In this document: piece after piece, positions 1-45,600 of the stretch
Layout of the letters: every line of letters begins with the position of its first letter
Numbering within the stretch: position 1 is the first letter of the stretch
From: Octopus sinensis
Lineage: Eukaryota
DNA length: 64,000 bases
NCBI RefSeq assembly: GCF_006345805.1
Contig: NC_043008.1
Location: 37,200,001 to 37,264,000 of the forward strand
Direction: 5' to 3'
Made by a program: the position numbers and the translations under genes
Notes under the pieces: model-generated
What the model saw: only the letters and a program-made list of their open reading frames with translations
Databases searched by the model: none
What the model was told of the DNA's origin: nothing

Positions 1-180
1 ATAAGCTAACAGATTGTTTCTAACTTATAAACCACTTTGATAATAAATAACAGTGACTTTGATATCATGGCTGGAAACTTTAATGAATATAAAGGATGTT
101 TACTTGGATGTGCATGTAGGCTATAAATCATTGATATAGTATAAAAAATGAAGTGGGATCAAGGTCTTTAGAGTTCTGTC

Positions 181-379
181 GGGTGAAATGCGTAGCTGTA
201 TTTCGTGTGTCATTACATTCTGAGTTCAAATTCCGCTGAGGTCAACTTTGCCTTTCATCCTTTCGGGGTCGATTAAATAAGTACCAGTTATGCACTGGGG
301 TCGATGTAATCGGCTTAATCCGTTTGTCTGTCCTTGTTTGTCCCCTCTGTGTGTAGCCCCTTGTGGGTAGTAAAGAAAT
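181..379 (+). mobile_element. tRNA-derived SINE, family A (core GAGGTCGACTTTGCCTTTCATCC...GGGGTCGATTAAATAAGTACCAG), 5'-truncated
   Basis: B-box-like GAGTTCAAATTCC followed by a conserved core shared with 12672-12907, 14556-14770 and 58151-58387. Confidence 0.85.
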
Positions 380-4560: not shown

Positions 4561-4978
4561 ACCCTTCCCATGTGACAAGTGGTATGATGTGGTCACTATA
4601 AATAGGAGAGTACAAAGCAGTACGGGGGAGTATGTAGTAGGCAGTCAGAGATAGTTGTGCCTTTACTGGTTTTACTAAGAATACTGTATAACAATCCAGC
4701 ATTTTAAGGATTATAACACATATAAAATGCCTTGCAGTATTTGTTCTAGCTTCTTTACATTCTTAGTTAAAATTCTCTGTTAAAATCGGTTAACTCTCTC
4801 CCTACAAACTTTGAGGCCCTGTCTTTATGTTAGAAACAATTATTATAAGAGCAGTGGAATGGCAGAAGTATTAGTGTGTTGGACAAAATGCTGGTTCTTT
4901 ACATTTTGAGTTTAAATCCAGTTGAGGACAACTTTACCTTTCATCCTCTTAAGGTATAAATTTTATAAAACACATTTC

Positions 4979-5012
4979 AGTACCAGTTTCAGTCATTGAG
5001 ACTTTTTCAACT
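4979..5012 (-). ncRNA. Minimal hammerhead-like motif, U3-A8 core variant (same family as 7516-7549)
   Basis: Minus strand reads AG-UUGAAAA-AGUC(UCAAU)GACU-GAA-ACUGGU-A-CU; lies in a cassette (~4955-5075) homologous to 7450-7575. Confidence 0.6.
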
Positions 5013-5565
5013 CTAAGTATGGAAAAACAATTAAATTTTGGAAAAATTATAAGAAAGTTTTTTAAAAGAATATTTAAAAGATAATAAAGTATCCCTTAAA
5101 TATTGGGATTGATTTATCATATTTTCTGGCATATAAGTGTAAATTTTCAAACCAAAATTTACTGTCAAAAAAAAGTAGGTTGACTGATACACCAAGATGA
5201 CTTCAGAGCACCAAAATTTCCTTGTGAAATGCAGAAGCATTTAGAAAGATTGTGACAATGTTTGAATGGTTGCACTACATCTTTGCACTATGTACTGCAT
5301 TGACTCATATGTCAGCAAATACAGTAATCAACAGTTTGTTGAAGGCAAACAATTTCAAACTTCAAAGTCACAGTTAACCTTTGTCCTGGTAAAATTTTAA
5401 AATGCTAATACTTTGCTAAAAGATATTGAGTAATCCTTTAGTTTAATATTAAATTTTATTTTTTTTTATATGACATAAAAATAAACATTAATATAATCGA
5501 CTTACCTCAGTCCACAAAATTCCTGGCCTTATGCATCATTTACAACCACATATTGTGGTAATTAG

Positions 5566-7358: not shown

Positions 7359-7600
7359 CAAGTGGCATTTTCCTTGTTTCTGCCTGTTTCTTTTGTTGAG
7401 AGACAGAGAAAGGCAGAAACAAGGAAAATGCACCTTTATTTGAACACTATGCAAATATTCTTTTAAAAACTTTTCTTTTAATTTTTCACAAAATTTAATT
7501 GTTTTCCATACTTAGAGTTGAAAAAGTCTCAATGACTGAAACCGGTACTGAAATGTTTTTTGTAAAATTATTTTAGCATTTTCTACCTTGACTCTTTTTT

Positions 7601-44642: not shown

Positions 44643-45158
44643 CTAGACATGAATTCATAAACTACAAAATATAAATATCCATACTCTCACACTTGAAACG
44701 TACCGGTTATAACTCTTTATCTCAATTTGAATGTGTGTGAATGTATTTAGAATGCCCAAACTTACTTCTTCAAATGTACTACGATGCTGATCATAGTTTA
44801 ATCAATAAACATAGGAGCGAAGTAAATGCAGTAAAAATAGGGGGTGAGGTCAGTTGGGCCCAATTTACGCGGCCCTTCAGAAATTGAACCTCCTTATGAT
44901 ACTCCCTGGGAGGTCATGCTATGAAATTTATTGTCATTGCTCTGATTTGGTCACCAATGCCATGTATTTATTTTAAAATGCAGTAAAAATAGTGGGTGTC
45001 TGTGGGGCCCCAATTAGGTAGCCCTTAAAAAAGTAGACCCCCTTAGGACATTCCCTGGGATTAGGGGAGTTGCTAGTTAGAGTTTCGTTGTCCTAGGAGG
45101 AGTTAACAAACATAAAATCTTAACTGACAGAGAAATATCACTCAAACTTATAATAGGA
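44643..45158 (-). mobile_element. Putative non-autonomous Helitron-like element with an internal ~152-bp tandem duplication
   Basis: Minus strand starts A|TCCTATTATAAG and ends CTAG|T; AAATGCAGTAAAAATAG occurs at 44824 and 44976; no clear GC-rich 3' hairpin. Confidence 0.45.
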
Positions 45159-45179
45159 TAATACAGATACATATATATA

Positions 45180-45235
<56 letters not shown>

Positions 45236-45241
<6 letters not shown>

Positions 45242-45600
45242 TGTTGTCTGGGGAGAGTCATTCTCTTTTAGTGCCTTATTATTTAACACACTCACCAGTA
45301 AAATTTCCACTTATTTCTTATTTTTATTTTCTAAACTTTTCGTTGCATGTTGCAACCTTTCCAGTAGTCTTTTTTTGTTGTGTGTTTGCAACCTTTTCAA
45401 TAGTCTTGACTATTGAAAAGGTTGCAACATGCAACGAAAATTTTAGAAAATAAAAATAAGAAATAAGTGGAAATTTTACCGGTGAGTGTGTTAAATAATA
45501 AGGCACTAAAAGAGAATGACTCTACCCAGACACAACAGAATATGCTTCAACACACGAACTCATATAAAGAATCTTGCAAACCAAATCCCAAAACGAAATA
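45236..45600 (+). mobile_element. (TA)n-embedded pseudo-LTR-like cassette with an inverted 5' copy
   Basis: Inverted arms ~45236-45369 and ~45408-45543, plus a third partial copy at 45386-45405. Confidence 0.8.
45410..45446 (+). ncRNA. Minimal type I hammerhead-like ribozyme, U3-A8 core variant
   Basis: CUA-UUGAAAA-G-GUUGC(AACAU)GCAAC-GAA-AAUU-U-UAG; all three stems consistent. Confidence 0.72.

What the first reader, a model, noticed from the sequence alone, without database searches (positions are those of the whole stretch)
45236..45600. Complex inverted cassette with a well-formed U3-A8 minimal hammerhead
Seen: a ~135-bp inverted repeat contains a nested 20-bp hairpin (45386-45427), giving three copies of the core region. 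Two read UUGAAAA. The left-arm copy reads CUGGAAA with a damaged stem III. The right-arm motif has all stems intact, and its sequence differs from the 7516 family, so U3-A8 occurs in two families. The triple structure suggests repeated template switching at the 5' junction right beside the ribozyme.
Basis: partly seen in the sequence, partly recalled or inferred. Interest (0 to 1): 0.75.

Follow-up and report, generated by a model that had tools for sequence, protein, structure and literature searches.

The report
Penelope insertion with known U3-A8 hammerhead
This is a short, back-to-back insertion of a very common octopus jumping gene that carries an already described variant of a likely self-cutting RNA, so the locus is ordinary; the less ordinary point is that hundreds of its sister copies begin at one fixed base just before the motif, likely the start of the element's RNA.

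Summary
The inverted repeat, nested hairpin and core letters are real, but the third 'copy' is a 36-base fragment without G12, not a hammerhead. The cassette (45236-45599) is one 5'-truncated insertion of a Penelope-like retrotransposon (RT, C-terminal GIY-YIG; at least 2,016 copies) in a TA repeat: an inverted arm and a tailed arm, as published for these elements. UUGAAAA is the family consensus (U3 1,912, A8 1,990, C3-G8 0 of 2,016). A sister family has C3-G8 at the same place, and all 5 differing pairs are compensatory, so the fold is likely real; cutting is untested. U3-A8 minimal hammerheads, opposite-strand pairs and junction palindromes are in print (2011-2021), and this scan met U3-A8 in other genomes. 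The 7516 motif is a weak second case. The same hairpin apex occurs 134 times, so it is no artefact; junctions track a micro-palindrome and a fixed 5' end, not the cut site. Side result: 547 of 1,152 copies differ from the element directly before one base 12 nt ahead of U3 (88 of 90 checked start there), with G excess, likely a capped RNA start. New member of a known kind; low interest.

The parts
45167..45239 (.). (TA)n microsatellite target, continued as ATATATAT after 45597; a target duplication cannot be resolved in it
   Evidence: (TA)n targeting described for linker-bearing PLEs (PMC8557442)
45236..45371 (-). Inverted 5'-truncated arm, family positions -1..136, ending at 3' end site A
45331..45367 (-). 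Decayed hammerhead motif of the left arm (C3, G6, G16.2): likely dead
45372..45407 (-). Extra 36-nt piece (family -1..33); 5' half of the motif, G12 and G24 read A; not a hammerhead
45386..45427 (.). Nested 20-bp hairpin; its apex (45396-45417) sits on the element's own micro-palindrome AGTC-AA-GACT and recurs in 134 places of the genome
45408..45599 (+). Main arm, family positions 1..192, ending at 3' end site B; 45544-45599 is the tail present on this arm only
45410..45446 (+). Minimal type I hammerhead motif: stem I 45410-12/45444-46; U3-A8 core 45413-19; extra G 45420; stem II 45421-26/45430-35; GAAA 45436-39; palindrome AAUU 45439-42; predicted cut after 45443
   Evidence: layout matches the published min-HHR consensus

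Best explanation
The cassette is one short, 5'-truncated insertion of a high-copy Penelope-like retrotransposon, made of two head-to-head arms plus an extra junction piece, and its right arm carries the family's U3-A8 minimal hammerhead, which likely cuts only as a dimer in the parent element's RNA and is predicted to be locked in the long hairpin in this copy. Shown: family, copy number, parent ORF, two fixed 3' ends (A ~136, B ~192), target duplications in sister insertions, consensus core, covariation with a sister family. Inferred: the endonuclease nicks both strands of an AT-rich target; each strand primes reverse transcription at site A or B on the same uncut RNA; the two short cDNAs run towards the RNA 5' end just upstream of the motif and are joined head to head through the micro-palindrome AGTC-AA-GACT; one extra re-priming event added the 36-nt piece. 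Later neutral decay (CpG and other point changes) damaged the left arm.
For: [quoted passage not shown] At least 2,016 copies; U3 in 1,912, A8 in 1,990, C3-G8 in 0. In 90 insertions anchored at the 3' part, 47 had an inverted partner within 330 nt (3 of these are spurious microsatellite or distant hits) and 40 end one arm at A and one at B. Target duplications >=7 nt in 13 of 14 A/B insertions versus 15 of 182 mismatched flank pairs. Same apex in 134 places; 10 of 20 examined carry an extra junction piece; 3 of 39 in the unselected two-arm sample. Sister family (P0001, 60% identity; >=2,975 copies) has a motif at the same 3' position: of 11 pairs 6 identical, 5 changed on both sides, 0 broken; 0 chance matches in 5,000 mimics of its 3' UTR. 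Whole-cassette fold -202 kcal/mol; stem I and II pair probabilities 0.0. Literature: min-HHRs and U3-A8, inverted arm plus tail, junction palindromes, two RT start sites and uncut RNA as substrate.
Against: Cleavage is not shown; published min-HHRs cut poorly or only with protein. The covariation rests on two lineages aligned by eye, and the sister motif has C at position 9, against the consensus A9. Unconstrained cofolding of two motifs gave paired stem II strands, not the dimeric hammerhead. Within the family there is no 3-8 covariation, and C3-A8 mismatches are common (about 85 of 2,016), as expected for dead copies. The tail (~56 nt) is longer than the published 30-40 bp. The left/middle junction of this locus was not confirmed by independent contigs. 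The clade (Neptune or Nematis) was not resolved.
Confidence: 0.82

Rival explanations
1. Same element, but the motif is a catalytically dead relic: the hairpin is kept for another role (protein binding, RT or promoter signal) and the U3-A8/C9 cores mark loss of cutting in this octopus lineage.
For: Both sister families deviate in the core (U3-A8 with extra G; C9 with extra G). Genomic copies show no peak of 5' ends at the cut site (exact ends 28-45: 15 arms spread over 7 positions, none at 37). Hammerhead mutants did not affect insertion in vitro for an anole PLE.
Against: U3-A8 keeps the pair and is reported active; stems I, II, III and the 3-8 pair all covary, and U4-G5-A6, GAAA and UH are kept in both families; uncut templates are expected even with an active ribozyme.
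Confidence: 0.12
2. One reading: ribozyme structure or cleavage drives repeated template switching at this junction.
For: 5' ends do cluster next to the motif: 30 of 55 arms at risk stop at -10..+9, against 13% expected; hazard is also about twofold raised at 30-49.
Against: The cluster is on the 5' side of the motif, peaks at one base (-7) and at a micro-palindrome; an RT stalled by the fold or stopped by the cut would end at 37-39. In the sister family ends cluster at -40..-50 (6 of 18 insertions), away from the motif.
Confidence: 0.04
3. The triple structure at this locus is an assembly or polishing artefact.
For: No contig of 4 public runs covers 45335-45370 at 96%; the locus abuts a long (TA)n run.
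Against: Arms differ at 5 bases and one indel; identical apices and extra pieces recur across the genome; sister insertions have target duplications; unique flanks match other runs up to the element.
Confidence: 0.03

Closest known systems
Minimal hammerheads of metazoan Penelope-like elements, U3-A8 subtype of Schistosoma mansoni Cercyon PLEs (Cervera and De la Pena 2014, PMC4209133; main text parts 1-2 of 4 and supplement file 2 part 2 seen)
   Same: UUGAAAA core (S. mansoni family 4), extra base between 9 and 10.1, G10.1-C11.1, 3-bp stem I, no monomeric stem III with palindromic 15.2-16.2; the A-U/U-U layout equals the Crassostrea gigas entry; opposite-strand pairs 100-700 bp apart; mostly truncated solo copies.
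   Different: Host is an octopus (0 hits for 'Octopus' in the supplement file searched; file 1 not searchable); the extra base is G, outside the >80% consensus H, though Nasonia has G.
Canonical C-terminal EN+ PLEs with CX2-5CxxC linker (Neptune, Nematis; Craig et al. 2021, PMC8557442, passages and supplement searches; Arkhipova et al. 2013, PMC3846280, passages)
   Same: RT then GIY-YIG, linker zinc finger, (TA)n targets, inverted 5'-truncated arm, one-sided tail, palindromes at the inverted junction.
   Different: Tail ~56 nt; RT motif B region reads GAAIG where the Nematis rows seen read LAMG; clade not resolved by a tree.
Poseidon element PAc of Anolis (Frangieh et al. 2024, PMC11167929, parts 1-2 of 4)
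   Same: Two fixed RT start sites that define the tail; AT-rich target; uncut RNA as template.
   Different: PAc has C3-G8 and its ORF starts in stem II; here the motif lies ~620 nt after the stop codon.
Natural U3-A8 hammerheads (Perreault et al. 2011, PMC3088659, section 8)
   Same: U3-A8 covariation, stated to be active in vitro.
   Different: Those are not minimal PLE motifs.

Membership tests
PLE minimal hammerhead (Cervera 2014) | Core YUGANRA with paired 3-8, GAAA and UH | tested here: met
   45413-19, 45436-39, 45442-43; consensus
PLE minimal hammerhead (Cervera 2014) | Extra nucleotide between 9 and 10.1; G10.1-C11.1 | tested here: met
   G45420; G45421-C45435. The base is G, not the consensus H
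PLE minimal hammerhead (Cervera 2014) | Short stem I, palindromic 15.2-16.2 in place of stem III | tested here: met
   CUA/UAG; AAUU
PLE minimal hammerhead (Cervera 2014) | Covariation among related families | tested here: met
   5 of 5 differing pairs compensatory against one sister family; two lineages only
PLE minimal hammerhead (Cervera 2014) | Located in the terminal repeat of a PLE | tested here: met
   L061, L014, L024
PLE minimal hammerhead (Cervera 2014) | Self-cleavage as a dimer | not testable with these tools
   needs an assay; cofold did not give the dimer
EN+ Penelope-like element | RT with DKG-type motif plus C-terminal GIY-YIG | tested here: met
   (parent copies; the window copy has no ORF)
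EN+ Penelope-like element | Inverted 5'-truncated arm, one-sided tail, target duplication | tested here: met
   duplication unresolvable at this locus
Neptune or Nematis clade | CX2-5CxxC linker | tested here: met
   CTNDNCMVC before the GIY-YIG motif
Neptune or Nematis clade | Placement in the RT tree | not tested
   no named reference proteins were available to the script machine
Naiad | N-terminal endonuclease | tested here: not met
   GIY-YIG at residues 331-424 of the C-terminal 428 aa frame
Non-LTR retrozyme | Tandem non-coding units each with a hammerhead | tested here: not met
   copies are 3' ends of a coding element; no tandem array here
PLE minimal hammerhead, 7516 family | Stem I >=3 bp and G10.1-C11.1 | tested here: not met
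   2-bp stem I, A10.1-U11.1; core letters UUGAAAA in 38 of 48 copies

The most novel reading that the evidence does not exclude
The short copies are a fossil map of the Penelope replication cycle in vivo: a capped sense RNA starts 12 nt before U3 of the hammerhead, two cDNAs primed at fixed sites A and B run off that cap on uncut RNA, and are joined head to head at the cDNA ends. This would put the hammerhead at the extreme 5' end of the transcript, where cutting removes the cap and a 43-nt leader (a decapping switch rather than a monomer-releasing cut), argue for a sense template against the antisense-template proposal, and show that octopus PLE lineages tolerate unusual cores (U3-A8 here, C9 in a young sister family with open frames).
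Probability: 0.35. Interest if true: 0.55.

Novelty: new member of a known kind. Interest (0 to 1): 0.25.

Why it matters
The flagged features are known Penelope anatomy, so the locus itself matters little. The family is useful as a test set: a U3-A8 and a C3-G8/C9 hammerhead in sister elements of one genome, and thousands of short copies whose ends record where reverse transcription starts and stops. If the fixed 5' end is the capped RNA start, the open questions of what PLE hammerheads are for and which strand is copied become directly testable by 5'-end mapping.

Tried and rejected
Rfam at E<=1 over the window: 142 matches, none a hammerhead family. Cleavage footprint: no peak of 5' ends at position 37 among 100 anchored arms; alignment ends there are uncertain by a few bases. 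Within-family 3-8 covariation: none; 20 lower-identity relatives gave no C3-G8 motif, 12 of 20 aligned to the motif region and all are U3-type. Selection on the core in genomic copies: non-majority letters 8.1% in the core against 10.3% at non-CpG sites overall, confounded by subfamilies, not used. Untemplated cap G as direct proof: in 4 of 5 target-duplication cases with G at -8 the G lies inside the duplicated target, so it is not shown to be untemplated; in 3 inverted cases it comes from the partner arm's GGGGAGAGTC. Shared spliced exon upstream of the 5' hotspot: flanks are unrelated. Public runs: no RNA holder listed; contigs neither span nor cover the unique junction. Dimer by unconstrained cofold: not obtained. 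Lunse et al. 2017 on dimer cleavage is not held (title seen in a reference list only) and may list these variants. Searches 'hammerhead C3U G8A' (0 papers), 'Penelope octopus hammerhead' (no paper on this family in the listing), 'U3-A8' (1 paper), cap/start terms found no report of this family or of its fixed 5' end; subscription papers and Repbase were not searchable.

Full report
Observation. The region holds a 136-nt inverted repeat (45234-45369 with 45408-45543, 93%) and a nested 20-bp hairpin. Tiling against the family gives three pieces: 45236-45371 minus (family positions -1..136, counting the G of GACTA at 45408 as 1), 45372-45407 minus (-1..33) and 45408-45599 plus (1..192). The right arm reads CUA UUGAAAA G GUUGCA ACA UGCAAC GAAA AU UU^UAG. 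It is the only match of a strict descriptor in the window, with 0 matches in 150 Markov mimics. The left arm has C3, G6 and G16.2; the middle piece lacks G12 and everything after the GAAA box. So there are two whole motifs, one decayed, and a fragment. The sixth stem II pair of this copy stems from a CpG-type change seen in 15 of 72 arms.

What it is. The genome has 2.72 Gb in 13,516 contigs; the nearest named protein relative is from Octopus vulgaris. [quoted passage not shown] That linker marks Neptune or Nematis (PMC8557442 passages); I did not resolve which. An exact pattern with a free core finds 2,016 places; 104 are not U at 3 and 26 not A at 8; all 26 were listed, 14 have G8, and none of these has C3. 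In an independent sample anchored at the 3' part, U3 is 58 of 63, A6 59 of 70, A8 66 of 70.

Is the fold real? A sister family (P0001, 60% identity over 83% of the 428-aa query; genomic copies 97-99% identical with frames of 882-1,120 aa; at least 2,975 motif copies) has, at the matching place after its stop codon, CCA CUGAUGC G GUCAC...GUGAC GAAA GAAC UU^UGG. Of 11 comparable pairs 6 are identical, 5 changed on both sides (stem I, 3-8, two in stem II, 15.2-16.2) and none is broken; 5,000 mimics of that 679-nt UTR gave 0 matches. This is two lineages aligned by eye, and the sister has C at position 9 (96 of the first 100, hand count). Cutting is untested. In this copy a read-through RNA is predicted to bury the motif in a -202 kcal/mol hairpin.

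The inversion. Of 90 insertions from the first 100 hits of a 3' anchor, 47 had an inverted partner within 330 nt (3 spurious), and 40 end one arm at site A (~136) and the other at site B (~192), as here. Thirteen of 14 A/B insertions picked by end motifs have a target duplication, against 15 of 182 mismatched pairs, so both arms come from one event. The window's hairpin apex lies on the element's own AGTC-AA-GACT palindrome and recurs exactly 134 times; 10 of 20 such loci carry extra junction pieces, against 3 of 39 unselected two-arm insertions. Contigs of public runs match the unique flanks but do not cover 45335-45370, so the middle junction of this locus is not independently confirmed.

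Where 5' ends fall. Thirty of 55 arms at risk stop at -10..+9, against 13% expected from the background hazard (arms are not all independent); there is no peak at the predicted cut. Of copies holding AGAGTCAAGACTATTGAAAAGG, 605 have the element's C before it and 547 another base; 88 of 90 of the latter that I fetched really begin there, and the base before is G in 50 of 90 against 15% in the next 12 bases; in copies without an inverted arm G is 17 of 27. Untemplated G at full-length L1 and SVA 5' ends is read as the copied cap (PMC4859970 passages). Against a simple reading: in 4 of 5 G cases with a resolved target duplication the G belongs to the target, and in some inverted copies it comes from the partner arm, so the G is enriched but not shown to be untemplated; pairing of a target G with a cap-derived C would explain it, which is inference. 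One locus restarts four times at this site (L354), as expected if it is the physical end of the cDNA. In the sister family 5' ends cluster at -40..-50 (6 of 18 insertions), at another small hairpin, so nearness to the ribozyme is not general.

Mechanism. Shown: family, ends A and B, target duplications, 5' hotspot, palindromic apex. Inferred, following the in vitro PAc work (PMC11167929): both target strands are nicked, each primes at A or B on uncut RNA, the cDNAs run to or near the RNA 5' end and are joined head to head by microhomology; one more re-priming made the 36-nt piece. The ribozyme is a passenger at this junction.

Known or new. Cervera and De la Pena 2014 report U3-A8 in about 1,300 S. 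mansoni motifs, the extra base after A9, palindromic 15.2-16.2 and opposite-strand pairs, with a UUGAAAA row and a Crassostrea row of the same layout. Perreault 2011 reports natural U3-A8. Inverted arm and tail and junction palindromes of 18 and 38 bp (PMC3846280) are published. Also seen: PMC6765202 passages and section 11 part 2, PMC2377424 passages, bioRxiv 10.64898/2026.07.22.740005 part 1 of 5. The 7516 family keeps UUGAAAA in 38 of 48 copies but has a 2-bp stem I and A10.1-U11.1 and fails the descriptor: a weak second case. Earlier notes of this scan describe the same variant in other genomes; my reading was set before I saw them.

Verdict. New member of a known kind, interest 0.25. The best lead is the fixed 5' end, which my searches did not find reported; the 2017 dimer paper and supplement file 1 of the 2014 paper could not be seen and may bear on the novelty of the core variants.

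Noticed in passing
G000 family-wide; L251-L340: 547 of 1,152 copies differ from the element directly before the A of C|AGAGTC, 12 nt before U3; 88 of 90 checked start there, with G before it in 50 of 90: candidate capped transcription start.
   Followed up: partly
L216:5168-5207 (G000:C29); L217-L250: Young sister PLE family with open frames of 882-1,120 aa and a hammerhead core CUGAUGC (C9 instead of A9) in 96 of the first 100 of >=2,975 copies; no C9 row in the part of the 2014 table seen.
   Followed up: partly
window 7506-7556 (+) and 4959-5075 (-): 7516 repeat family: UUGAAAA in 38 of 48 copies, but 2-bp stem I and A10.1-U11.1; ends in (TA)n and has opposite-strand pairs; parent ORF not sought.
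   Followed up: partly
family positions -7..-1 and 111-117 (window 45518-45524 for the latter): AGAGTCA at the 5' end is complementary to TGACTCT near end A, a possible 7-bp helix enclosing the hammerhead; it gives the junction microhomology in L127, L277, L284, L285.
   Followed up: no
listing: C3-A8 copies (about 85 of 2,016) are six times as common as U3-G8 copies (14): a subfamily or a mutation hotspot.
   Followed up: no
L010, L106, L061, L313, L315: A few short copies are joined to sequence from the far 5' part of the element or to a shared unrelated leader, hinting at partial tandems or a second template.
   Followed up: no
L051, L052, L064: The first 20-25 bases of the motif are fused to unrelated sequence in a large inverted duplication.
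   Followed up: no
window 44824-45060: Two diverged ~150-bp direct copies of another repeat family, abundant in public contigs.
   Followed up: no
window 7365-7431: A ~67-nt inverted repeat at the left end of the 7516 copy.
   Followed up: no
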